Shown here: piece by piece, positions 3,641-58,966 of the stretch
Layout: every line of letters starts with the position of its first letter
How positions within the stretch are numbered: the first letter of the stretch is position 1
DNA from: Mobula birostris
Lineage: Eukaryota
Direction: 5' to 3'
Assembly: GCF_030028105.1 (NCBI RefSeq)
Contig: NC_092393.1
Location: forward strand, 23,787,825-23,851,824
DNA: 64,000 bases
Made by a program: the position numbers and the translations under genes
The notes under the pieces: model-generated
Seen by the model: the letters and a program-made list of their open reading frames with translations, nothing else
Told to the model about the DNA's origin: nothing
Database searches by the model: none

Positions 3641-5389
3641 GAGTAGCAAATTACACAGCATACACACAAACCAGCGTTGGGCGGGAGAGCCGTCTCAGTC
3701 TCAAGAGTTCGGTTAGACTGGAGAGCGTTTTCCCTAGACTTACACAGCCAAGGAAACCTGGAGGTTTCACTACCTTCTGTTCTTTTAACTGTACATTGAA
3801 TATGCACATTAGGCTTTGCAATAGCCATGATGTTGACAACAATAACCTCTCACTGATTCCAGAATGCCTTGTCATTTGCTTTTCTTCTGGAGTTGTTAAA
3901 AATCAACAGCGTCTTAAAAAAAGAGATTACTGCTGTGAACACTGCTGATTCCTTGTAAGTCTGGAGAATTTACCCATCACAGTTTGGAGTGTAAATTTGA
4001 AAGTTATGATATTTCACTGTAGAATTGAATCTTGTTTTCCATAGATACCTCTGAATTAAGTTGCAATAGGATTTTCAAGATCACATTTTAGAGACCGTTA
4101 ATTTGAAAGTGCTGTTTACATGGCTAGGTAGCACCTTAGTGTGTACATACTTTCTGGAATTGCAAGAGGTTCAGAAAATACAAATAGAAAATGCCTTTAA
4201 TACTCAGCAGGTCAGGGTGCATTGTAAAGAAGAAAACATGAGTAACATTTCATCAGAACTGGGATACGTTTTAATAAAACAAATCCTAAAGTTGCAGAGA
4301 TTCTGAATCTGATTTATTTACCACATGTATATCAAAATATACAGTGAAATGTATCATTTGCTCAACAACCAAGGATGTGCTTGGGGGTGGCGGGGGGGGG
4401 GGGGGTAGCCCTCTAGCATTGCCACTCATTCCAGTGCCAACATAATGTGGCCACCATGCTCAAAAGAACACAAGAAGGAACAAAACAACCGCAAAACAAG
4501 CTCTTTTCCTCCTTCGTAACCATGCCCAAACGCAGTCCTCCAAACGCAGCAGAAAACCAGGAGAGATGAATGATTTATACAGTGCTACTGGCTGAAAGAT
4601 TAAGAAAAATCTCACTTTTTTTTTTTGGATTTTCAGGGAGAAACCTGAAGACCTATAATTAATAATTCAGAAACAGCTTCTTCCCTTTCGCCATCAACAT
4701 TCTTGAACAGTCCTTGAAGGCCACTTGTTATAGCTTTTCTTTTGCTTTTTTTCCATAATTTATAGTAAATTGTAATGTTGCTGCAGACAACAAATTTCCA
4801 CTTCATTTAAGTTAGTGATGATAAATCTAATTTTGATTATATTTATGCAAGGATTAGTGAAGACTATAGTGTATTGAAAGATCATAGATTAAAAATTTCT
4901 GAATGGTTCAAAACATTAATGCCAAGGAAGTCATATGAACATGTATGTTTTGCATTTTCCAAGTGGAATTCAAATTACTTAGAAGGTTTGCTCAAAGTTT
5001 GAGAATAAAGATTAGCTGTATATCTATCCTGTGAATCAAATGATCCTAACGGTGACATCAAGGGATCTTTTGACATTAATTCTGAATGTTGCAACTTTTT
5101 GCTCTGCTTGATGTGATTAAAATTCTGGTTTGCAGAATGCTCCACCACCTTTAAGGCTATTCTGGTTTATAGAGTTTTACAATGTGACACTATTTGAGGT
5201 CTGGAAGATTTTCTAACTTGTATCCTAAAAATGCTACTTCCTAAAACAGTCACTGTTTCTACAATGTTTGGAAACCTCTTCTTTACACTATGACAGTACA
5301 AGACCGATCAATGAATGTGAGCATTGATTCGCTCACTGATGATAAATGAAACAGTTAGCTTCTGTCCTTCACAGTTAAAAAGCACTTAC

Positions 5390-7271: not shown

Positions 7272-7421
7272 GACGAGAAAATCTGCAGGTTCTGGAAATC
7301 CACAAAATGCTGGAGAAACTCAGCAGGCCAGGCAGCATCTATGAAAAAGCGTAAACAGTCAACATTTCAGGAAGAGATTTGAAATGCCAACTGTTTACTC
7401 TTTTCCGTAGATGTTGCCTGG
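7272..7421. mobile_element. Penelope-derived palindromic element, older subfamily, centre deleted
   Basis: gagaaaatctgcag...cagcaggccaggcagcatctatgaaaaag with inverted cttttccgtagatgttgcctggc. Confidence 0.75.
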
Positions 7422-7657
7422 CAACACTGGTTAAGCTGTTATGCTCTGTTGTAACTGAGATCAATGAAGCCTCCAGACCAGACTGATTTTGTCACTTAGT
7501 ACAACAAATATCCCATGGACATACAAACTTGTTTTGTTTATCAATAATTGGTATACTTATGTACCAGCAAGTCAGCCCTCACAACACCAATCTTTTGGCC
7601 TGAGCTCTTTTCTTAAAAGCTTTAGCATATTCATGTGAACTACTTTGTTCTTGTAAA

Positions 7658-7891
7658 CGCAAACACGAGGAAATCTGCAGATGCTGGAATTTCAAGCAAC
7701 ACACATAAAAGTTGCTGGTGAACGCAGCAGGCCAGGCAGCATCTCTAGGAAGAGGTACAGTTGACGTTTCGGGCCGAGACCTTTTGCTAGTTAGTCCTGA
7801 CGAAGGGTCTCGGCCCGAAACGTCAACTGTACCTCTTCCTAGAGATGCTGCCTGGCCTGCTGCGTTCACCAGCAACTTTTACGTGTGTTGC
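7658..7891. mobile_element. Penelope-derived palindromic element with 13-bp TSD
   Basis: Near-perfect inverted arms of about 85 bp. TSD ttgttcttgtaaa at 7645-7657 and 7892-7904. Confidence 0.9.
7792..7829 (+). ncRNA. Minimal type I hammerhead ribozyme motif (one stem I mismatch)
   Basis: TAGTC-CTGACGA-A-GGG-TCTCGG-CCC-GAAA-CGTC-AACTG: both core boxes, stem II and an ACGU palindromic stem III are present. Confidence 0.7.
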
Positions 7892-7938
7892 TTGTTCTTG
7901 TAAAGGTGTTTTAACATTCAGGGGTGTCTTGTCAGTTA

Positions 7939-11179: not shown

Positions 11180-11800
11180 AATTACTCTTTCACAGATACA
11201 AGAGATTTTGCATATGCTGGAAATCTTGAGAAACACGCACAAAATGCTGAAGGAGCTCAGCACAGGTCCGACAGTATTTCTAGAGGGAAGTAAACAGTTG
11301 ATGCTTCCGGCCAAAACCCCTCATCAAGACTGGAAATGGAGCCAGAAGCTAGAATAAGGTGTTGGGGGAAGGGAATGAGTATAGGTGAGACCGGGTGAAG
11401 GGGATGGTAGGTAGGTAAGGGTGGAGGAGAATGATGTGAAAAGTTGGGAGGTGATAGATAGAAGAGGTAAAGTGCTGTAGGAGGAATCAAAGGAGAGGAC
11501 AGTTCGATAAAGGGAAGGAGGTGGGCAACCAAGTCATGAAGACAGGGGAGGAGAAGAAAAGGGACGAGACACCACTAGAATGGGGAGAAAAGAATCAAAA
11601 AGTTGGGGCAGGTGAAGAGTACAGAGGGAAGTGGTGACCAGATGTTAGTGAAGGTGAGTTTTCTCAGTTTGGAAACTACCCAGACAGAATGAGGTGTTGC
11701 TCCTCCGACCAGAATTGAGCCTCATCATGCCAGTAAAGCAGGCCGTGGACAGATGCTTTGTGTGGGAATGGGAGGTTAAATTGGCACAGATGGTCACTCA
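11180..11800 (-). mobile_element. Penelope-like element 3' end (ORF C-terminal remnant plus pseudo-LTR)
   Basis: Minus strand carries an EEQHL(I)...LGSFQ remnant like 60520-60570, then a pyrimidine-rich tract, a decayed hammerhead core (cttgatgaggggttttggccggaagc) and the terminal block shared with the palindromes. Confidence 0.75.
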
Positions 11801-15774: not shown

Positions 15775-16251
15775 TACTTGGATTTCAGTAAGGCATTTGA
15801 TCAGGTTTTCCAAGTTAGCCTAATTCAGAAAAGTTGGAAGAAATAGGATCCAGAGAAATTTGGCTGTGTGTATTCGGAACTGGCTTGCCCACAGAAGGCA
15901 GAGGGTGGTAGTAGTTGGAGTGTGTTCTGCCTGGAGTTCGGTGTTCTGCTGGGATCTGTTCTGAGACCCCCGCTCTTTGATTTTTTTTTTTTTTAAAATG
16001 ATTTGGATGAGGAAGTGGAAGTGCAGGTTAGCAAGTTTGCAGATGAAATGAAGGTTGCAGTGTGTAGAAGGTTTTAGTGGGTTACAATGTGACATTGATA
16101 GGAGTAACTGAGAAGTGGCAAATGGAGTTCAATTGGAAAAGTGTGAAGTGATCCACTTTGGAAGGTTAAACTTGGAAGGCAGAGAACAGGGTTAATGGCA
16201 GAATTCTTGTTAGTGAGATGGAACAGAGGGATCTTGGGTTCCATGTCTACA

Positions 16252-16776
16252 CAAGGGGTGATTGATAAGTTCGTGGCCTAAGGTAGCAAGAGGCGATTTT
16301 AGAAAACCTAGCACATTTATTTTTCAACATAGTCCCCTCCAACATTTACACACTTAGTCCAGCGGTCATAGAGCATACAGATCCCTTCTTTGTAGAAGTT
16401 GGCGTCTTGGACCTCCAGAAAGTGGTCCACAACAAGGGTGATTGATAAGTTCGTGGCCTAAGGTAGAAGGAGATGAGGTATACAGCTCCCGTTACATGCA
16501 CGTGCAGTTCAACTCTGAGTGAAAGTGCAGAAAGTTTGAAGTTAATCACTTATCTTCTTCTACCTTAGGCCACGCATTTGTCAATCACCCCTGCTGTGGA
16601 CCACTTTCTGGAGGTCCATGAACGCCGACTTCTACAAAGAAGGGATCCGTATGCTTCACGACCACTGGACTAAGTGTGTAAATGTAGGAGGGGACTATGT
16701 TGAAAAATAAATGTGCTAGGTTTTCTAAAATTGACTCCTTCTACCTTAGACCAACAAACTTATCAATCACCCCTCG
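16252..16776. mobile_element. Mariner-like palindromic MITE inserted in CR1
   Basis: Inverted arms of about 220 bp, caaggggtgattgataagttcgtggcctaagg ... cttatcaatcacccctcg|TA, each with an internal second copy of the terminal motif. Confidence 0.85.
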
Positions 16777-17690
16777 TAGATCCTTCAAAGTTGCTGTGAA
16801 ATTTGAAAGGATGGTTAAGACACATGGTTTAGCTGGTTAGGGGCCTTTCTTTAGTTAGGGGACTGAGTTCAAGAGCTGCAAGGTAAAATTGGTTGCCTCA
16901 ATTTTGGAAGGAAGTTGAAGCTTCAGAGAGGGTACAGAGGAGATTTACCAGGACGCTGCCTGAATTAGACAGCATGTCTCATGAAGGAAGGGTGAGCAAG
17001 CTAGGCCTTTTCTCTTTGGCATGAAGGAGGATGAAAGTTGACTTGATAAAGTTGTATAAAATGATAGGAGACATAGATTGAAGGGGACAGTAGCATCTTT
17101 TCCCAGGGTGCAAATAGCTAAAACAATTTTAAGGTGATTGAAGGAAAGTAATGGGTGGGTGTCAGAGGTAGTTGTTTTTTTAAAAATTTACACACAGAAG
17201 CGGGTGCATGGAATGTGCTACCAAGCATGATTGTACATATGTGTTAAGGATATTTAAGAGACTCTTAGGTAGACATATGGATGAAAGAAAAATGGAGTGT
17301 TATGCGGGAGGGAAGCATTAGTTTGATTTTGCAGTCGGTTAAAAGAAAAGTTGTGGGCTGAAAGGAGTCTACAGTGCTGCACTGTTCTATGTTCTAGTAC
17401 TTCACAGATTTCCAGAGGGTATATCTGTTCCAAATCAACCACTTAGGACAAGTACCAGTACAACCTGATGAAATGTGTCCTTAGCCACCACCATGCCTGA
17501 CAACTCCAGACAACAGTAATGCCAGCTACCCACATTTCATGATGAAATTCCTGCATAATAAGGCATTTTTCTGCAATGGCATAACCACTTAGTGGGAGTC
17601 TGGCATCCTTGATTGACCATTTCCTCTGTGTGGCTCTGAATTGGGTTTTTACAACAATCTTATCAGCACATAGTCATAATTATGATAATA

Positions 17691-17921
17691 AAAACAACAG
17701 GAATTCTGCAGATGCTGGAAATTCAAGCAACACACATGAAAGTTGCTGGTGAACGCAGCAGGCCAGGCAGCATCTGTAGGAAGAGGTACAGTCGACGTTT
17801 CAGGCTGAGACCCTTTGTCAGGACGTCCTGACAAAGGGTCTCGGCCTGAAACGTCGACTGTACCTCTTCCTACAGATGCTGCCTGGCCTGCTGCGTCCAC
17901 CAGCAACTTTCATGTGTGTTG
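17691..17921. mobile_element. Penelope-derived palindromic element with 16-bp TSD; hammerhead cores mutated (CTGACAA) on both arms
   Basis: Arms meet at ggacgtcc with no spacer. TSD cataattatgataata at 17675-17690 and cataactatgataata at 17922-17937. Confidence 0.9.
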
Positions 17922-20454
17922 CATAACTATGATAATATGGTTTCATTGTAGATTTATATTTTCTTAGCAAATGAAATTCCCCAACTCCTCTGGTGGAATT
18001 CTATTTCCTGTCTGTTACTAATCCAGTAGCAAGTTTTACCTTTTGTTACTATTTTAATAAGGACATCAACCCTCTTAATTATATTTATAGTCTCATTTGC
18101 AATTTAACCTCTGTCATCCAAGCTACTCTTACAAAAGAAATGTCATTAATTTTTCATGTAGTTTCTATACCCCAATTTATTGATGTTACAGGATTATGCA
18201 GCTACTAATAAAACAATATTCATGCAGTACCAAAGTACTGGAAGCTCTAGAGCAGCAAAAAAAAAATTATAAATATTTATGACATCACCACGTCAATAAA
18301 AGATATAAATAGAAAAGAATGCTTGACACCCTGGTGCAAAACTCCTTATGTTGTTTACTTCAGAGTCCATATCCAAACTGATAGCCAGAAAGCTTTCATT
18401 ATAAAGTTACCCATTATAAAGTCACTCCATTTCATAAACAATTTTTCTGCCAACCCATTTACAGACATTTCCTGAGCTCCTAATTCAGCTGGGTTTGCTC
18501 AGTTGATATCAGCCATGTGGAGCTGCAATAGAAAATACGCAATTTGGCAGTTTGCTTTCTTTCCAGTACTAGCAGCTGAGAGATCATGTCTAATGAGAAC
18601 ATTTAACCAAAATAGCAGCACTGAAAGTGGAAAAAGAAGCACCGAATCCAAAAACCATTTCTTCCATTTTTTAAAAACTGAACCTTTTAAGTTGATTGGA
18701 TATGCATCAACAATCTGTCATTAACTTGCCCCTGTACCTATTTTAATGCCAATAGTCAGAAGAGAAGTGGACATGATAGTTAAGTCCTTATTGATCATTA
18801 CATCCACGACTGGATATTCAAGACTATTTTAGCTGTATTCAATTAGTTAGCAAACATGGCAATTTAATAATTACAAGCTTAGGATCCAAAAGAATATTAC
18901 AGCAGAATGCAGCCTATTCCACCTGATGCCTGAGCTTTCTGCACTCAGCACTGAGTGCTAGCATTTCCTCTAGGTTGGCAGAATTGTGTTTCAAATATAA
19001 AGGAAAGGTAGTGTACACATCTTGTTGTCACTGAAAGGTTTCTTGTTCCTCACGGAAAGGATTCTGCTCGTTCATAATTGTACACACTCAAAGGATCATT
19101 TTCAAAGTAAACTCAACTTATGTGGAGGGCAGTAGTGGGCCAGCAGCGTATTGATGCAAAGTCCTATAATCTAGTATTTTTTTTTGCTGACTTTTGGAGA
19201 TAAAGAGACTTGAAGTAAATTAGTTCAGGGAGAGCTGAAGATTCAATTCATGGTTCTAGGACCACAAAATGTGTATCTGGTAATGATACTGCATAGAGCA
19301 AAAATATTTCCATTTCAGTAGCAAGTGCTCAATTCAATTTTAGATTGTTAGCATTGATACTGTTCCTTCCTCCCTCTTTCCATGCTTAGTTTCTCTCCCT
19401 CTTCTTTCCTTTATCTGTCACACACCCTCTGTAGTACCTGAGCAGGCATGACCAGCTATTCCAGGAACCTTGACAGAACAAATACTGCTTGCAGAGTTTA
19501 AGCTTATTTTACAGTAATTGGAGAGTCTCAGTTTTCTTTTGATAGCTAACTATTGTTTATGTATTGTTTCTTTCCTGGCTTTGCCCTTCATCAGTTGGAG
19601 ACTGGGATAAAGAAAAATCAAGGAGGAAACAACTTAAAGTTTCTTAAACTTGGAGTTCCTTAAAATAAGGTGCTGATGCCAAAACTGAAATTCTGAGTTT
19701 CCTAGTAATTTTAGTTTAGTGTGCCCTCCAATTTACTCAGGGGTGTGTTCCTAGAAAATTGTCCACAACACAACTTTCTACATGCAAACCCATTTTCCCC
19801 ACATTAAATCTCATATTACAAGTGTGGATACGTTCCCACAAGATTTCCTCTGAATAGTAATACAACATTGGTATACAGTCCACAGGCAACAAATCCGGAT
19901 CATAATGTAGACAAAGGAGTAATGTTGTTTTAATTGATTAGAAATGCACATTATATTTAACAAAGTATTATTGTACAATTGCCTAGACATTTTCTAAGCC
20001 AATATGTCCTCATGCTGACAGCAGGTCTGTGATTGTTATCTTTGGTCAACTAGTTCAATTCTCTGTATATTGTGTTTATTTAATTCTTTTCCCACTCAAA
20101 CAAATCAGCAAGCGCAGATTTTTAATCTGTACCTCAGTTTGTTTTTTTTTTTGCGTTTTCTGTACAGATGAGTGCCTATTGACTGAACTGATGTAACACA
20201 GGGGTGCGTTGGACTTATTTTGTTTGTAAAGTGTTGAGAATTAAATGGAGAAACATAAAGTATTCAAAAGTGACAGGCAGGTTACATTTAAAAATATCAA
20301 TATTTTACTATCAATAGCAAACTTCTTATTGGGCAAATGCAGTCAAAATTGCATTTAGGAGTGCTTAAAAAAACTTAACATTAGTTTACTTAAATTTAAT
20401 GATAAATAAAGCAACTTGAATGGCACCCCAAGAAATAATCACAATGACTCAAGG

Positions 20455-20630
20455 CAAACAAGAGAAAATCTGCAGATGCTAGAAACCCAAGCAACACACA
20501 AAATGCAGGTGGAACGCAGCAGGCCAGGCATCATCGAAAAGAGCCCTGCTGAAGGGTTTCGGCCTGAAACAGCAACTATACTCTTTTCCTAGATGCTGCC
20601 TGGCCTGCTGATTTCCTCCAGCATTTTGTA
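20455..20630. mobile_element. Penelope-derived palindromic element, older subfamily
   Basis: gagaaaatctgcagatgct...cagcaggccaggca, decayed core cctgctgaagggtttcggcctgaaac, inverted gatgctgcctggcctgctg. Confidence 0.8.
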
Positions 20631-28284: not shown

Positions 28285-30865
28285 ACAAGACCATAAGACC
28301 ATAAGACAAAGGAGCAGAAGTCAGCCATTTGGCCCATCAAGTCTGCTCCGCCATTTTATCATGAGCTGATCCATTCTCCCATTTAGTCCCACTCCCCCGC
28401 CTTCTCACCATAACCTTTGATGCCCTGGCTACTAAGATACCCATCAACCCCTGCCTTAAATACACCCAATGACTTGGCCTCCACTGCTGCCCATGGCAAC
28501 AAATTCCACAGATTCACCACCCTCTGACTAAAAAAAAATTTCTTCGCATTTCTGTTCTGAATGAGCGCCCTTCAATCCTCAAGTCATGCCCTCTCGTACT
28601 AGACTCCTCCATCATGGGAAACAACTTTGCCACATCCACTCTGTCCATGCCTTTCAACATTCGAAATGTTTCTATGAGGTCTCCCCTCATTCTTCTAAAC
28701 TCCAAGGAATATAGTCCAAGAGCGGACAAACGTTCCTCATATGTTAACCCTCTCATTCTCGGAATCATTCTAGTGAATCTTCTCTGTACCCTCTCCAACA
28801 TCAGCACATCCTTTCTTAAATAAGAAGACCAAAACTGCCCACAGTACTCCAAGTGAGGTCTCACCAGTGCCTTATAGAGCCTCAACATCACATCCCTGCT
28901 CCTATACTCTATTCCTCTAGAAATGAATGCCAACATTGCATTCGCCTTCTTCACCATCAACTCAACCTGGAGGTTAACCTTAAGGGTATCCTATACGAGG
29001 ACTCCCAAGTCCCGTTGCATCTCTGAATTCTCTCCCCATTTAAATAATAGTCTGCCCATTTATTTCTTCTGCCAAAGTGCATAACCATACACTTTCCAAC
29101 ATTGTATTTCATTTGCCACTTCCTTGCCCATTCTTCCAATCTATCCAAGTCTCTCTGCAGACTGTTTCCTCAGTACTACCGGCCCCTCCACCTATCTTCG
29201 TATCGTCAGCAAACTTAGCCACAAAGCCATCTATTCCATAATCCAAATTGTTGATGTACAATGTAAAAAGAAGCAGCCCCAACACTGATCCCTGTGGAAC
29301 ACCACTGGTAACCGGCAGCCAGCCAGAATAGGATCCCTTTATTCCCACTCTCTGTTTCCTGCCAATCAGCCAACACTCTATCCACGTATGTAACTTTCCT
29401 GTAATTCCATGGGCTCTTATCTTGTTAAGTAGCCTCATGTGTGGCACCTTGTCAAAGGCCTTCTGAAAATCCAAATATACAACATCCACTGCATCTCCCT
29501 TGTCTAGCCTACTGGTAATTTCCTCAAAAAATTGTAATAGGTTTGTCAGGCAGGATTTTCCTTTAAGGAATCCATGTTGAGTTCTGCCTATCTTGTCATA
29601 TGCCTCTAGCTACTCTGTAACCTCATCCTTGACAATCAACTCCAACAACTTCCCAACCACCGATGTCAAGCTAACAGGTCTATAATTTCCTTTTTGCTTC
29701 CTTGCCCCCTTCTTAAATAGCGGAGTAACATTTGCAATCTTCCAGTCCTCTGGAACCATGCCAGAATCTATCGACTTTTGAAAGATCATCACTAATGCCT
29801 CCGCAATCTCCACAGCTACTTCCTTCAGAACATTAGGGTGCATTCCATCTGGTCCGGGAGATTTATCTACCTTTAGACTATTCAGCTTCCGGAGTACTTT
29901 CTCTGTCGTAATTGTGACTGGGCACACTTCTCTTCCCTGCCACCCTTGAGTGTCCGGTATACTGCTGATGTCTTCCTCAGTGAAGACTGATGCAAAATAC
30001 TCATTCAGTTCCTCTGCCATCTCCTTATCTCCCATTACAATTTCTCCAGCATCATTTTCTATCAGTCCTATATCTACCTTCACCTGTCTTTTACTCTTCA
30101 TATACTTGAAAAAGCTTTTAGTATCCTCTTTGATATTATTTGCTAGCTTCCTTTCATAGTTAATCTTTTCCCTCTTAATGACCTTCTTAGTTTCCTTTTG
30201 TAAGCTTTTAAAAACGTCCCAATCCTCTGTCTTCCCACTAATTTTTGCTTCCTTGTATGCCCTCTCCATTGCTTTAACTTTGGCTTTGACTTCTCTTGTC
30301 AACCATGGTTGCATCCTTTTTCCATTCGAAAATTTCTTCTTTTTTGGAATATACCTGTCTTGCACCTTCCTCACTCCTCGCATAAACTCCAGCCACTGCT
30401 GCTCTGCCGTCTTTCCCGCCAGTGTCCCTTTCCAGTCAACTTTGGCCAGTTCCTCTCTCATGTCACTGTAATTTCCTTACTCCACTGAAATACCGACACA
30501 TCAGATTTCGGCTTCTCTTTTTCAAATTTCACAGTGAACTCAATCATGTTATGATCACTGCCTCCTAAGGGTTCCTTCACCTCAATCTCTCTAATCACCT
30601 CTGGTTCATTACACAATACCCAATCCAGTACAGCCGATCCCCTAGCGGGCTCAACAACAAGCTGTTCTAAAAAGCCATCTCACAGACATTCTACAAATTC
30701 TCTCTCTTGAGATCCAGTGCTGACCTGATTTTCCCAATCCACTCGCACGTTAAAATCCTCAATTATCATAACACTGCCCTTCTGACAAGCCTTTTCTATT
30801 TCTTGTTGTAATTTGTAGTCCACATCACTGTAGCTGTTTAGAGGCCTATAAATAACTGCCATCAG
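28285..30865 (-). mobile_element. Young 5'-truncated CR1 LINE inserted in the plus-strand CR1
   Basis: Long ORF2 segments (KSPGPDG, NYRPVSLTS, YLDFQKAFD, GVPQGSVLG, KFADDTK, RPHLEYC) and a (TCTTATGG)n tail. Confidence 0.96.
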
Positions 30866-32040: not shown

Positions 32041-34915
32041 AGACCATAAGATATACAGAAGAAGTAGGCCTTTTGGCCCTTCAGGTCTTCTCTACTATTT
32101 CATCTTGGCTGATCCATTTCCCTCTCAGCCCCAATCTCCTGCCTTCTCCCCACAACCCTTCATGTCGTGATTAATCAAGAATCAGTCAACCTCTGTCTAA
32201 AATATGCCCAATAACTTGGCCTGTAGCAACGAATTCCACAGATTCACCACTCTTTGGCTAATGAAATTCCTCATCTCCATTCTAAATGGACATCCCTCTA
32301 TTCAAAGGCTGTACCTTCTCCACATAGACTCCTCCACCAAAGCAAACACCCTCCCCACATCCACTCTGTTCAATAGGTTTCAATTATGTTACCCCACATT
32401 TGTCCAAATTCCAGCGAGATGAAGCCAAAGCCATCAAATGCCCCTCATATGATAAGCCTTTCAATTCCAGAACCTCCTTTGAACCCCCTCCAATGTCAGC
32501 ACATCCTTTTTAGATAAAGGGACCAAAATTGCTCACAATACTCCAAATTAGCCTTGCCAATGCCTTATAAAGCCTCAACATTATATTCTTGCTTTTATAT
32601 TCTAGTCCTCTCGAAATGAACGATAACATTGCACTTGCCTTCCTCACTGCAGACTCAACCCTTAGGGAATCTTGCATGAAGACTCCCAAGTCCCTTTGTA
32701 CCTCAGATTTTTGAATTTTCCCTCCAGTTAAAAAAAATCTACTCTTTTAGTTCTTCTGCCAGAGTGCATGTCCATACACTTCCCGACACTGTATTCTGTT
32801 TGTCACTTCTTTGCTAATTCTCTTAAGTCCTTCTGTAGCCTCCCTGCTTCAACACTACATGCCCCTCCACCTATCTTCGTATCGTGCACAAAGCCATCAA
32901 TTCTGTCATCCAAATCATGGACATATAATGTAAAAAGTAGTCCCAACATAGACCCCTGGGGAACACCAACTGGAAAAGGCTCCCTTTCTTCACAGTCTTT
33001 CCCTCCTGCCAATCTGCCATTGCTCTGTCCATGCTGGCATCTCTCCTGTAATACATTGGGTTCTTCACTTGTTAAGCAGTCTCACGTGTGGCACTTCTGA
33101 AAATCCAAGTATATAACATCCATGATTCTCCTTTGTCTGTCCCGCTTGTTATTTCTTCAAATTGCAATAGATTTGTCAGGCAAGACTTTGTCTTCAGGAA
33201 AACATGCTGACTTTGGCCAATTTATCATGTACCTTCAAGTACCCTGAAGCCACAGTCTTAACAATTAACTCCAATGTCTTCCCAACCACTGAGATCAGAC
33301 TAACTGACCTATAATTTTCTTTCTTCTGCCTCTATCCATTCTTGAAGAATGGAGTGATATTTGCAATTTTCCAGTCCTCCAAAACTATGCCAGAATCCAT
33401 TGATTCTTGAAAGATCATTACTAATACCTCCACTATCTCTTCAGCCACCTTTCAGATATCTGGGTTGTTGACCATCTGGTCCAGGTGACTTACCTAACTT
33501 CAGACCTTTCAGTTTCCGAAGCACTTTCTCCCTCATAATGGCAACTTCACTGGCTTCTGCCCCCTGACACTCTCAAATGTCTGGCATACAGATCATGTCT
33601 ACCACAGTGAAGAATGATGCAAAATAGTTATTCAGTTAGTTCACCATTTCCTCGTCCCCCATTACTACCTCTCCAGCACAATTTTGTAGTGATCCTCTGT
33701 TCTCGCCTCACTTTTACACTTGATATAGCTGAAAAAACTTTTAATATTATTGGCTAGCTCACCTTTGTATTCCATTTTTTCCTTCTTTATGACTTTTTAG
33801 TTGTCTTCTGTTGGTTTTCAAAAAGCTTCCCAATCCTCTACCTTCCCACTAATTTTTGCTCTATTACGTTTCCTCTCTTTGGCTTTTATGGTGGCTTTGA
33901 CTTCACTTGTCAGCCACAGTAGTATTATCCTGCTTGGCTATCACCCCTGCTACTGTTCCCTTCCAATCAACTTTGGCCTCGTCCTCTCTCATGCCTTTGT
34001 AATTCCCTTTACTCCACTGTAATACCAATGATACATCTGACTTTAGCTTAGTCTTCTCAAATTGGAGGGTGGAGTCTATATATTATGACCACTGTCTTCT
34101 AAAGGTTCCTCTTCCTTAAGCCCTTTAACCAATTCTGGTTGATTGCACAACGCCCTAACCAGAATCACTGATCCCCAGTGGGCTCAACCATGAGCTGCTC
34201 TAAAAATCCACCTTGTAGACATTCCACAAAATCCCTCTCTTGGTATCCAGCACCAATCTGATTTTCCCAACCTACCTGCATATTGAATTCCCCAATGACT
34301 ACTGTAAAATTGACCTGTTGACACGTACTTTCTATCTCACATTGGAATTTGTGGACCACATATTTGCTACTGTTTGGAAGTTTGTATACAACTCCCATCA
34401 GGGTCTTTTTACTTTTGCAGTTTCTTAGCTCTACTCACAATGATTCAACATTTTCCGATCCTACATCACCTCTTTCTAATGATTTGGTTTCATTTTTTAA
34501 CCAACCCCACCCCACTCCATAGGCCTACCTACAAGTCCTTTCGACACACTGTGTATTCTTGGACATGAAGTCCCAGCTATAATCTTCTTTCAGCCATGGT
34601 TCAGTGATGCCCCCAATGCCATTCATGCTAATCTGTAACAGTGCTACAAGATAATCAATCTTATTCTGTATACTATGTGCATTTAAATACATCACCTTCA
34701 ATCCTGTATTCATCACCTTTTTTAACGCAAACAACAGGAATTCTGCAGATGCTGGAAATTCAAGCAACACACATCAAAGTTGCTGGTGAATGCAGCAGGC
34801 CAGGCAGCATCTCTAGGAAGAGGTACAGTTGACGTTTCAGGCCAAGACCCTTTGTCAGGACTAACTGAAGGAAGAGTTAGTAAGAGATTTGATTTGATTG
34901 CCTTTCTTGCTGTTC
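32041..34915 (-). mobile_element. Older CR1 LINE (ORF2), 5'-truncated
   Basis: MYLNAHSIQNK endonuclease start, GVPQGSMLG, DTKIGG and tcttatggtct tail. Many indels. Confidence 0.9.
34724..34890 (-). mobile_element. Single-arm Penelope pseudo-LTR fragment with mutated hammerhead core
   Basis: Same arm as the palindromes but no inverted copy. Minus strand reads TAGTC-CTGACAA-AGGGTCTTGGCCT-GAAA-CGTC-AACTG. Confidence 0.85.
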
Positions 34916-39783: not shown

Positions 39784-39889
39784 AGTCAACAAAATACCTT
39801 TGAACTACAGTCACTACTATAATGTAGAAAAATGGAGTCAACTAAATACCTTTGAACTACAGTCACTGCTATAATGTAGAAAAATGGAG
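39784..39889 (+). repeat. Tandem duplication of a 52-bp unit (2 copies, 2 mismatches)
   Basis: agtcaacaaaatacctttgaactacagtcactactataatgtagaaaaatgg is repeated from 39836. Confidence 0.92.

Positions 39890-44508: not shown

Positions 44509-44563
<55 letters not shown>
44509..44563 (+). repeat. (TC)6(AC)~21 compound microsatellite
   Basis: Read directly. Confidence 0.97.
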
Positions 44564-55421: not shown

Positions 55422-55639
55422 CACAAACAGGAGAAAATCTGCAGATGCTGGAAATCCAAAGCAACACACACAAAATGCTGGAGGTGCTCAGCAGGCCAGG
55501 CAACAGCTATGGAAAAGAGTAAACAGTGGGCATTTTGGGCAGTCTTGATGAAGGGTCTTGGTTCAAAATGTTGACTGTTTACTCTTTTCCATAGATGCTG
55601 CCTGGACTGCTGAGTTCCTCCAGCATTTTGTGTGTGTTG
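55422..55639. mobile_element. Penelope-derived palindromic element, older subfamily, 14-bp degenerate TSD
   Basis: Inverted arms. TSD catgaggttagctt at 55408-55421 and cataagattagctt at 55640-55653. Core decayed (cttgatgaagggtcttggttcaaaatg). Confidence 0.85.
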
Positions 55640-56219
55640 CATAAGATTAGCTTATATACACAGACTGAATGCACGTACATAAAGTGATGCTAGCTGCAGG
55701 AGTATCTAAGTATAAGGTGACTCTGACAAGAAATGATAATGTGACTCTTGGGACAGGGAACTCTTCTAGGTAGTAGGAGGGCATATGAAAATATAGGACA
55801 GTGACTGTCAGTGTAGGTATTAGGCATGGAGAGTAATCGTAAAATGGCAGTGCATGGGGTTTGACGGATGCTGAGGGGCTGTGGAGAAGAGTAGCTGATG
55901 TGGATGGGGTGGTGGTGGGGGTTGCTAATAGTTGGAGGTGTTGATCAGCCTGACATCTTGGGGGAATTAACTATTTTTGAGTGATCAGCTCTTTACAACT
56001 TAATGATCTTTTTTTGTCTAAGTCTTAAATTCCACTGAAGGATTCTTAACCTAAAATGTTTACCATTTTTCTTGCTCCTTAGATGTTGCCTTGATGTGCT
56101 GAATATCTTCAGAATTTTTTGTTTGTATTTTTCTGTATGAGGTTTTAATTTCGTATCAGTCATCATAAAAATGTTCAGAGGAATGGAAAAAATATCTAAA
56201 CTGTACGGTATTATAAACT

Positions 56220-57140
56220 TAGAACACAAGATTATGGGAAAATAGGAGGAATATGTTATTTGGCCCTTCAAACCTGTCCCACCTTTTAAAATGATCATTG
56301 ATGATCTAAACTGGCATCGACTCTCTTTGTGTCATTTTTCCATAAGCTTCTGTTCCTTCATGTATCCAACTCCTCTTTAAATATTTCTGATGTTCCAAAT
56401 TCCACCACCATCTAAGTAAGAGAATTCCAGAAATTTACCATTCTTTATGAAAACAAATATCTATGTGTCTCAGTTTAAAATGACTGGCCCTTTCTTATTA
56501 TGTCTCTTTGTTTGACACTGTCCCACTTCTGAAAAGATTACAACAGCTACCCTGTCAGGTTCCCTTAGGATCTTGTATGTTTAAATAAGATCACCCCTCA
56601 TTCCCCTAAACTTCAAGGAATATGGGCCCAAACTATTTGGTCTTCCTGGCAAATGAGAAAATCTGCAGATGCTGGAATCCAAGCAACACATACAAAATGC
56701 TGGAGGAACTCAGCAGACCAGGCAGCTTCTGTGGAAAAGGTGCTGAGATCCTCTAGCATCTTGTTTGTGTTGCTCGTCTCCCTTGGTTAGGCGACCCTCT
56801 AATTCCAATCTCCTTTGCACTCATTCCAGTGTTATCCTTTCATTCAATAAGGAGATCAAATTGCTACACAGTATTCCAGGTTAGGCCTCTCCAACACCCT
56901 GGACAATTTTTGTAACGCCTCCCCATCTTTAAACTCCAACCCCTTTGCAGTACAGGCCAAAATGCCCTTTGCCTTCAGAACTACTTGCTGGATCTGCACG
57001 CTAGCTTTTTATGACTCATGCACTAGGACAGCTTGATCCTTCCGTTCTTCACTCACAGTCAGTCTCTTTCCATTTTGATCATTTCTCTTTTTGATTTACT
57101 GTGTCCTACCAAAGTGCATGATTCCCACTTTCCCACTTGA
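56220..57140 (-). mobile_element. Old CR1 3' fragment containing a collapsed Penelope palindrome (56650-56773)
   Basis: agatcacccctcatt and cacagtattccagg blocks. The insert reads gagaaaatctgcagatgctgg...tgtgttgc. Confidence 0.7.
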
Positions 57141-57538
57141 AAGTTATTTCCCATGGTAGAGATATGGCAGAGTTATTTCCCATGGTGTGGGAGTCTTGGA
57201 CAAGAGGGCACAACTTCAGGACTGAAGGACATCCATTTAGAACAGAGATGCGGAGAAATTACTTTAGTCAGTGGGTGGTAAATCTATGGAATTTGCTGCC
57301 ACGAGTGGTTGTGGAGGCCAAGTCATTGAATGTATTTAAGACAGAGATAGATTCTTGATTAGCCAGGTCATCAAAGGGTATGGGGAGAAGGCAGGGGAGT
57401 ATGGATGACTGGAAGAATTGGATCAGCCTATGATTGAATGGTGGAGCAGACTGATGGGCCAAATGGCCCACTTCTCCTATATCTTATAAAAGTTGCTGGT
57501 GAACACAGCAGGCCAGGCAGCATCTCTAGGAAGAGGTG

Positions 57539-57576
57539 CAGTCGACGTTTCAGGCCGAGACCCTTCGTCAGGACTA
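57539..57576 (-). ncRNA. Minimal type I hammerhead ribozyme motif, best-preserved copy
   Basis: Minus strand TAGTC-CTGACGA-AGG-GTCTCGG-CCT-GAAA-CGTC^GACTG: intact core, stem I UAGUC/GACUG, stem II AGG/CCU, ACGU stem III, GUC cleavage triplet. Confidence 0.8.
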
Positions 57577-57603
57577 ACTGCAGGAAGAATATCTTCCTTC
57601 AGT

Positions 57604-57641
57604 TAGCCCTGACGAAGGGTCTCGGCCTGAAACGTCGACTG
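57604..57641 (+). ncRNA. Minimal hammerhead motif on the opposite arm (one stem I mismatch)
   Basis: TAGCC-CTGACGA-AGG-GTCTCGG-CCT-GAAA-CGTC-GACTG. Confidence 0.7.
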
Positions 57642-58966
57642 CACCTCTTCCTAGAGATGCTGCCTGGCCTGCTGCGTTCACCAGCAACTTTTATGTGTGT
57701 TGCTTGAATTTCCAGCATCTGCAGAATTCCTGTTGTCTCCTATATCTTATGGTCTTATGGAAACTTCATTTTCCTTTTTTGCCCACTCACTCAGTTTGTC
57801 CTCAGTCAGTTGCAGAATTGTGTTATCTTTACCACACCATGCCCTTCCAGCTATTTTCATATCACCAGCAAATTTTGAAACCTTGCATACTGTTCCTTCC
57901 TCCAGGTCATTAATTTAAATAGTGTACAATTGTGGGCCAAGAGCTGATTCCTGCAATGGTTACACCCTTACATTCTGAAAAGGGCCCATTTATTATAACC
58001 CTTATATTTTCTCTGTGACAAGCAGTTTCCACTCCATTGAAACAGCCGCCTTCTGATTCTTGACTAAGCCTTTTTGAAATCTAAATACATTTTATCTGCA
58101 GATTCTCCTCAAAAGTTAGGAGCAAACTTCACTTACTTTTATAAAACTATGTTGATGAGGTTTAATTATATTCAGCTTTCCTAAAAGATCAAGTTTTTTC
58201 TTATTTGATTATTACTTGATCATTTACAGTTTAAACAAACTGGCCTTTAGGTTTCTGTCCTCTGTCTTTCTCCTCCTTTTGAGCAAGGGAGTCACATTGA
58301 CTATTTTCCAATCTTCTGGTAAAAATTTCAATCAGTGCATTATGGAATTAGTGTATTTGGTCTGTAGTGACTTAATTATACATTGTGGGCAACAATCAAA
58401 TCAGAAAATGCTCAACAGGTCATGCAGATTTATTGTAAGAAAAACAATATTTAATTTTCAGACCAAAGCCTCCTCACCAAAAACTGCCTGAGTATTTTCT
58501 GCTTTTATACAGTGACCTGCATTTCAGACTTCTCAGTTTCTGCAAGTTTTGATTTGATTGTGGAACAGTAGTTTGGTTTGCAATTGGGGATCTGTGGATC
58601 AGGTTGCAGGTCAAGCCTGGAGTTCTGTGTTGGACAAACTGGGAGCTAAAAGCAAAAAAGTTGGTTCATTTTCCTCTTGCCTTGGAATTGGATGCATAGT
58701 TCTTGAGATTATAATTGAAAATCTTAAGTTTATGTGTGGTAGTATAAAGGACACACCATGGTTAATGGAAATTCTAAAATCATTTTAGATATTTTTACAT
58801 GATTTGTCAAGCCATGTAAATAATGCCAAAAAGATAGTCAATGTGGATGACAATTGATTTGCCACATGGAAGGTCCAAGGTGGAATTAAATATTACTCCT
58901 TGGTTTATTTATGTCAAAAGCTGTTGGAAAAGATGCCTGTGTTCAGTTCTGATGTTTCTTCTCTAG

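What the first reader, a model, noticed from the sequence alone, without database searches (positions are those of the whole stretch)
17675..17937. Copy-specific variants are mirrored on both arms of each palindrome
Seen in sequence: the 17.7-kb copy has tctGtagg/cctaCaga, catGaaag/ctttCatg and cttTgtcagg/cctgacAaag on both arms. The 57.5-kb copy has ggtGcagtc/gactgCacc on both arms. The 7.7-kb copy has cagtTgacg/cgtcAactg on both arms. At these sites the arms within a copy agree while the copies differ from each other. Inference: the second arm is synthesised from the first during each insertion (fold-back or template switch in target-primed reverse transcription), or the arms are later homogenised by cruciform gene conversion. 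The differing centres (no spacer, short spacer, deletion) favour independent fold-back events.
Basis: partly seen in the sequence, partly recalled or inferred. Interest (0 to 1): 0.7.

Follow-up and report, generated by a model that had tools for sequence, protein, structure and literature searches.

The report
Mirrored Penelope stubs inherit template variants
These DNA palindromes are short back-to-back stubs of a very common Penelope-type jumping gene, and the letters mirrored on both halves are variants found at other copies of the family, likely because both halves were copied separately from the same parent RNA at insertion rather than folded back or evened out later.

Summary
The mirrored letters are real and exceed chance, but they are not copy-specific. 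The palindromes are head-to-head 3' ends of a Penelope-like element (RT plus GIY-YIG ORF) with 13-15 bp target duplications. In 130 of 131 insertions exactly one arm carries the 35-nt tail. All five mirrored variants recur elsewhere (3-38% of arms); two are in the window's own 34.7-kb copy. Short-palindrome arms agree at family-polymorphic sites (12 of 173 discordant, 65 expected), yet 0 of 28 private changes are mirrored and older palindromes decay independently. So mirroring dates from insertion, and later conversion is at most minor. Simple fold-back fails: in 47 of 130 insertions neither arm is a subset of the other. Best reading (inferred): both cut strands prime a separate copy of the same source RNA, one from each of two fixed start sites, and the copies join head to head. 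Unexplained: long insertions are more discordant, and two pairs of neighbouring insertions share a junction found nowhere else in the genome. The layout is published, and this scan reported the family before, in this genome and others.

The parts
17675..17690 (+). left copy of the 16-bp target-site duplication (1 mismatch to the right copy)
   Evidence: empty site with one copy in organism B
17692..17824 (-). tail-bearing arm: last 133 nt of the Penelope-like unit; 17692-17726 is the 35-nt tail that only this arm has
17825..17922 (+). tail-less arm, joined bluntly head to head to the left arm
17825..17859 (+). minimal hammerhead-like motif (CUGAnGA ... GAAA), mirrored at 17790-17824 on the minus strand; core G8 is changed to A on both arms (17833 and 17816)
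   Evidence: read by eye; no Rfam hammerhead match; not the minimum-energy fold; core numbering recalled
17738..17911 (.). mirrored variant pairs 17738/17911, 17776/17873, 17816/17833; unmirrored changes at 17806 (CpG) and 17897
17922..17937 (+). right copy of the target-site duplication
7645..7904 (.). second insertion: duplication 7645-7657 / 7892-7904, tailed arm 7661-7784 (-), tail-less arm 7789-7891 (+) reaching about 14 nt further inward; centre unique in the genome
57473..57750 (.). third insertion: 15-bp duplication 57473-57487 / 57736-57750, tail-less arm 57488-57588 (-), tailed arm 57592-57736 (+); centre unique; tail junction also present in organism B
34729..34892 (-). single-arm tailed copy carrying two of the supposedly copy-specific variants
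55425..55648 (.). palindrome of an older subfamily of the same element; arms differ at 11 of 85 sites

Best explanation
The palindromes are single insertions of two head-to-head, front-truncated ends of a Penelope-like retrotransposon, and their mirrored letters are variants shared with other family copies, likely inherited because each of the two cut target strands primed its own reverse transcript on RNA from the same source copy. Shown: one target duplication per insertion; one tailed and one tail-less arm; arm lengths that vary independently; arm agreement at family-polymorphic sites; unmirrored private changes. Inferred: staggered nicks about 13-15 bp apart; one cDNA starts at the tail end and the other about 35 nt upstream; both stop (often at the front edge of the hammerhead motif, possibly the RNA 5' end); their 3' ends are joined bluntly, by microhomology or with a few added bases; host repair fills in the rest. 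After that the arms mutate independently. Least certain: whether both cDNAs use one RNA molecule or two RNAs of one source lineage.
For: One tail and one non-tail arm in 130 of 131 insertions with a duplication (131 kept of 158 candidate pairs). Non-tail arm deeper in 47, tail arm deeper in 26, within 5 nt in 57. L034 has a 1069-nt tailed arm and a 1745-nt tail-less arm. L059 and L124 are long tail-less copies with only about 10 nt of tail at the far end. Short class concordance 60/64, 59/65, 50/57, 48/55 against shuffled means 33.5, 35.8, 33.7, 29.9. Private changes mirrored 0, single 28 (short); 3 against 121 (long). Rare mirrored alleles recur mirrored at unlinked loci: one at L004, L186, L228, another at L236, L241. 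L207 matches the 17.7-kb right arm at all seven sites typed. Arm-to-arm non-CpG difference 2.7% is not below the duplication mismatch rate of 1.7-2.0%. In vitro, the anole Poseidon protein cleaves and extends both strands, starts at two sites that bound the tail, is predicted to be a dimer, and inserts with dead hammerheads (PMC11167929, parts 1-2 of 4).
Against: Long insertions are discordant at 68 of 395 polymorphic sites (random 163), and at the same three sites 15/66 against 12/173 in short ones, p=0.001; one RNA molecule alone does not explain this. 231 of 366 site pairs fail the four-gamete test, so the family is mosaic or these sites mutate recurrently. Among the catGaaag-selected loci where both arms were typed, only 1 of 5 is mirrored. 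Perfect-centre palindromes have more mirrored rare and CpG changes than other short ones (9 of 80 against 6 of 145, p=0.052). The duplication mismatch rate is biased low by how duplications were found. Inner ends are BLAST ends, uncertain by a few bases. No RNA or biochemical data for this element.
Confidence: 0.55

Rival explanations
1. Twin priming as above, but the two cDNAs usually come from two different RNAs of source copies active at the same time; arms agree only because one lineage dominates at a time.
For: Long-class discordance is 42% of random and varies between loci more than a single rate allows (p=0.04). The partner arm is the nearest sequence for only 5 of 42 long arms.
Against: Short-class discordance (12/173) is close to what later mutation at about 2.7% per site would give. 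L097 mirrors four rare alleles on a 139-nt and a 1075-nt arm. The rank test is confounded by copy age.
Confidence: 0.15
2. Fold-back or self-priming (first reader; also proposed, on an antisense template, in PMC3846280): one cDNA turns round and copies itself to make the second arm.
For: Highest concordance in short and perfect-centre palindromes (3 of 21 common variants single against 21 of 62, p=0.10). 57 of 130 inner ends lie within 5 nt of each other, though the short set was largely chosen for near-symmetric centres.
Against: 47 of 130 insertions have each arm holding sequence the other lacks. Near-symmetric long centres are not enriched (5 of 25, expected 2.6, p=0.11). No private mirrored change in 69 short palindromes, as copied RT errors would give. 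It survives only with later flips of the centre or a hybrid with a second priming.
Confidence: 0.15
3. Arms are evened out after insertion by cruciform gene conversion or replication template switching.
For: Same-direction CpG decay on both arms exceeds opposite-direction decay (10 vs 5 short, 19 vs 6 long). Weak excess in perfect centres (p=0.052). The 17.7-kb copy is a perfect centre with a mirrored CpG change.
Against: 132 single against 7 mirrored rare or private non-CpG changes in short palindromes. Seven older palindromes differ 13% between arms against 16% to other loci. Arms are no closer than the target duplications. The 17.7-kb copy postdates a split of about 1-2% divergence yet already has 2 unmirrored changes.
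Confidence: 0.08
4. Ready-made palindromic masters transpose as units, MITE-like.
For: The blunt 17.7-kb centre occurs at 24 loci on 16 contigs. Two long junctions are each shared by two insertions with different flanks.
Against: The blunt-centre loci carry mixed haplotypes (16 typed) and sit at the general pile-up of inner ends. Three other centres tested are unique. 29 of 33 long junctions in the surveyed part of C1 are unshared within the sample. In the shared-junction pairs arms group by locus as often as by side.
Confidence: 0.05

Closest known systems
Insertion unit of endonuclease-bearing Penelope-like elements: pLTR, adjacent inverted 5'-truncated copy, one-sided 30-40 bp tail, target duplication (PMC8557442 passages; PMC3846280 passages and Discussion)
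   Same: Head-to-head inverted copy, 35-nt tail at one end, target duplication, partial tandems in which the tail runs into the ORF (13 of 19 loci), RT followed by GIY-YIG.
   Different: The passages read call the tail optional or often one-sided and propose self-priming or endonuclease resolution. Here the one-tail rule is 130 of 131, and arm extents contradict simple self-priming. Duplications are 13-15 bp against 8-10 bp in the rotifer examples.
Poseidon element of Anolis (PAc) in vitro (PMC11167929, parts 1-2 of 4)
   Same: Two reverse-transcription starts that bound the tail, activity on both strands, hammerhead not required.
   Different: The parts read do not explain inverted arms or test whether the two starts are paired. 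This element was not placed in the Poseidon clade by a tree.
Minimal type I hammerheads of metazoan Penelope-like elements (PMC4209133 passages)
   Same: Core CUGAnGA ... GAAA in the terminal repeat, long helix II, palindromic loop 3, high variability between copies.
   Different: No Rfam match or folding support here; the 17.7-kb copy has lost G8 on both arms.
L1 twin priming (recalled, no call)
   Same: Both target ends prime reverse transcription and the cDNAs are joined, giving an inversion inside one duplication.
   Different: In L1 the second primer starts internally, so the two parts do not overlap. Here both arms cover the same 3' end.

Membership tests
EN+ Penelope-like element | Single ORF with reverse transcriptase followed by C-terminal GIY-YIG endonuclease | tested here: met
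   558-aa frame in L088: RVT_1 E=7e-7 (29.5 bits, cut-off 29.6) then GIY-YIG E=0.0075 (17 bits, cut-off 22.6); GIY-YIG E=4e-4 in L034. Right order, all just under the curated cut-offs; sampled copies are broken.
EN+ Penelope-like element | Partial tandem forming pseudo-LTRs, tail equal to the start of the next unit | tested here: met
   13 of 19 loci holding the ORF front are preceded by a truncated copy ending in the tail and one shared leader of about 180 nt.
EN+ Penelope-like element | Inverted 5'-truncated copy with a 30-40 bp tail at one end | tested here: met
   130 of 131; tail-less ends cluster 33-39 nt short of the tail end.
EN+ Penelope-like element | Target-site duplication around the whole unit | tested here: met
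   131 of 158 candidate pairs passed the duplication and identity filters; 93 of 131 are 13-15 bp; empty site in organism B.
EN+ Penelope-like element | Hammerhead motif in the pLTR | tested here: inconclusive
   Core letters present in the majority sequence; no Rfam hammerhead hit; not the predicted minimum-energy fold; cleavage untested.
Penelope/Poseidon clade | RT phylogeny groups with Poseidon rather than Neptune or Nematis | not tested
   No tree with reference RTs was built.
MITE or palindromic master element | Many copies share one internal centre and form a clade | tested here: not met
   Centres unique for 3 of 6 tested, in two copies for 2, and in 24 copies of mixed haplotype for 1.
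Palindrome under arm-to-arm gene conversion | Arms stay more alike than age allows and private mutations are mirrored | tested here: not met
   A weak excess in perfect centres is not excluded (p=0.052).

The most novel reading that the evidence does not exclude
Penelope integration is an obligately paired reaction: one complex nicks both strands and copies one RNA twice, once from each of two fixed start sites, so nearly every two-armed insertion has exactly one tail. In addition, long palindromic insertions can take over the inversion junction of a neighbouring insertion a few hundred kilobases away while keeping their own ends and target duplication.
Probability: 0.35. Interest if true: 0.62.

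Novelty: new member of a known kind. Interest (0 to 1): 0.36.

Why it matters
How Penelope-like elements make their inverted copy is stated as open in PMC8557442 and PMC3846280 (passages read). With at least 4642 short palindromes, this genome turns the question into counts: the one-tail rule, arm extents and arm concordance favour paired priming over self-priming, and predict the result of a two-barcode in vitro test. It is also a useful negative: perfect hairpins of about 100 bp are not efficiently evened out in this germ line. The 17.7-kb copy itself is a dead, ordinary insertion.

Tried and rejected
Rfam scan: only chance hairpin matches below gathering scores. RNA folding did not recover a hammerhead. 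Orthologue test for mirrored species-specific changes: short-read contigs of organism B stop inside the arms, so only presence or absence could be read; no contig piece was listed for the 7.7-kb site. Nearest-neighbour rank of partner arms is confounded by age and was not used as support. No arm tree was built: too few informative sites and 231 of 366 four-gamete failures. Segmental duplication as the cause of shared junctions: rejected, flanks and duplications differ. A recent central conversion tract between junction-sharing loci: not seen, divergence is even at about 3% and 4-5%. A gradient of discordance from centre to ends: weak (15/112, 24/120, 28/151). Literature searches found no paper that counts mirrored variants, tail pairing or shared junctions in Penelope palindromes; most subscription papers are not in the library and no supplements were read, so this is not proof of absence. 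bioRxiv 10.64898/2026.07.22.740005 (two passages) had nothing on the question.

Full report
Observation. The five quoted variants are on both arms of their palindromes, and arms are 97-98% complementary. Each locus also has two unmirrored changes. The variants are not copy-specific. Among sampled arms their frequencies are 21% (tctGtagg), 38% (ggtGcagtc), 12% (cttTgtcagg), 9% (cagtTgacg) and 3% (catGaaag). The single-arm copy at 34729-34892 has two of them. The rarest was on the matching arm at all 28 other best-matching loci fetched; three of these share the 17.7-kb three-site haplotype, and L207 matches its right arm at all seven sites typed.

What the element is. The window lies in a 4.0-Gb genome; the repeats look like those of cartilaginous fishes (recalled, not tested). 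An exact two-arm pattern occurs at 4642 places and the ORF end at 19,306. Longer copies lead upstream into a frame with RVT_1 followed by GIY-YIG, both just under Pfam's cut-offs. In 13 of 19 loci holding the ORF front, a truncated copy ending in the 35-nt tail runs straight into the ORF leader. This is the partial tandem, inverted copy and one-sided tail described for Penelope-like elements (PMC8557442 passages; PMC3846280 passages and Discussion). The arms hold a minimal hammerhead-like core as in PMC4209133 (passages), seen by eye only.

Sample. Loci came from pattern and similarity searches, 16 arbitrary 10-kb stretches and stretches around listed hits, mostly on C1. The first set had 97 insertions with a duplication out of 121 candidate pairs; the final set 131 of 158. 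Short palindromes were chosen by a pattern that fixes 16 bases per arm and a near-symmetric spacer, or by likeness to the 17.7-kb copy; one search removed those sites and separated the groups, and left out the window's copies and the 30 loci chosen for catGaaag.

Anatomy. Exactly one arm is tailed in 130 of 131 insertions; the exception (L089) is probably two separate copies. Tail-less ends cluster 33-39 nt short of the tail end. Duplications are 13-15 bp in 93 of 131. Junctions in the first set are blunt (27), overlapping (32) or have 1-15 added bases (38) or more (2). The tail-less arm reaches more than 5 nt deeper in 47 insertions, the tailed arm in 26, and 57 are within 5 nt. In those 47 neither arm can be a copy of the other, for example L034 with 1069 and 1745 nt.

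Are mirrored letters beyond chance, and when did they arise? Yes. At four polymorphic sites short-palindrome arms agree 60/64, 59/65, 50/57 and 48/55, above the maximum of 2000 shuffles in each case. But changes seen at one locus only are not mirrored: 0 against 28 single in 69 short palindromes, 3 against 121 in 27 long ones. Rare mirrored alleles (7 against 0.5 by shuffling) tend to recur mirrored at unlinked loci, as lineage markers would. Arm-to-arm difference at non-CpG, non-polymorphic sites is 2.7% in both classes, against 1.7-2.0% between the two copies of the duplication, a figure biased low. Seven palindromes of an older subfamily differ by 13% between arms and 16% from other loci. 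In organism B, whose flanks differ by 1.1-2.0%, one contig (runs X5 and X7, one sample) crosses the 17.7-kb site and skips 17681-17927, that is the insert plus one copy of the duplication; the 57.5-kb tail junction is present there. So the 17.7-kb copy is likely young, and it already has two unmirrored changes.

Results against this reading. Long insertions are discordant at 68 of 395 polymorphic sites, and more so than short ones at the same three sites (15/66 against 12/173, p=0.001). Two different RNAs, template switching or later conversion by other family copies could each cause this; 231 of 366 site pairs fail the four-gamete test. Of five catGaaag-selected palindromes typed on both arms only one is mirrored. 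Same-direction CpG decay on both arms outnumbers opposite-direction decay (10 to 5, 19 to 6). Perfect centres show more mirrored rare and CpG changes (9 of 80 against 6 of 145, p=0.052). Some conversion in perfect hairpins, including the 17.7-kb copy, is therefore not excluded.

Centres. The 7.7-kb, 57.5-kb and L034 centres occur once in the genome. The blunt 17.7-kb centre occurs at 24 loci on 16 contigs with mixed haplotypes, at the place where inner ends pile up anyway, so it is best read as recurrent. Two long junctions each occur exactly twice, 373 and 604 kb apart on C1, with different flanks and duplications. Their arms group by locus at least as often as by side and divergence is even along them. 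This is unexplained.

Mechanism. Inferred: both nicked strands prime reverse transcription, one at the tail end and one about 35 nt upstream, on RNA of the same source; the cDNAs are joined at their 3' ends and filled in. This fits the anole Poseidon protein, which cleaves and extends both strands, starts at two sites bounding the tail, is predicted to be a dimer and does not need hammerhead cleavage (PMC11167929, parts 1-2 of 4). The last point means the mirrored G8 change at 17.7 kb could have come from the source. PMC3846280 proposed self-priming; the arm extents argue against its simple form here. Confidence is about 0.85 that mirroring dates from insertion, about 0.7 for separate priming over fold-back, and 0.55 for the whole reading.

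Novelty. The layout is published, and earlier notes of this scan describe the same family and the two-priming idea in this genome and others (unreviewed, not counted as support; my reading was recorded before the look-up). The idea that the pile-up of inner ends is the RNA start comes from those notes and was checked here only as a pile-up. Six literature searches found no count of mirrored variants, tail pairing or shared junctions; subscription papers and supplements were not seen. Verdict: real, mostly explained, a new member of a known kind; interest 0.36.

Noticed in passing
L082/L083 (G000:C1 3.107 and 3.480 Mb) and L086/L087 (C1 7.858 and 8.463 Mb): Two pairs of long head-to-head insertions, 373 and 604 kb apart, share an exact inversion junction found only twice in the genome, with different flanks and duplications and, in the first pair, the tail on opposite sides. 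Arms group by locus at 5 sites in each pair and by side at 3 and 2. They are 4 of 33 long junctions sampled there. Unexplained: repair templated on a neighbour, or two products of one event.
   Followed up: partly
sampled loci: Inner ends of short arms pile up 120-146 nt from the tail end, at the front edge of the hammerhead motif: 21 of 57 short ends outside the targeted palindromes (the window's copies included), 0.78 per nt against 0.07 further upstream.
   Followed up: partly
L059, L124, L219: Apparently single copies carry a 10-20 nt remnant of the complementary arm type (tail start, or tail-less start) at their far end inside the duplication.
   Followed up: partly
L082, L090, L098, L136: Long palindromes with an internal deletion of about 270-1000 nt in one arm.
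   Followed up: no
window 16250-16775: A different nested inverted repeat, arms about 230 nt and 89-91% complementary, with an internal copy of its terminal motif. It looks like a non-autonomous mariner-type element (recalled, not tested).
   Followed up: no
window 7301-7420, 11205-11330, 20456-20623, 56656-56776: Decayed stubs of an older subfamily of the same element.
   Followed up: partly
window 57180-57760 and 28290-28530: The 57.5-kb palindrome sits inside another abundant repeat (depth; inverted matches I15, I21, I24), probably a SINE or LINE tail (recalled).
   Followed up: no
window 39784-39889 and 44520-44563: A 52-bp tandem duplication (96% match) and a (CA)22 microsatellite.
   Followed up: no
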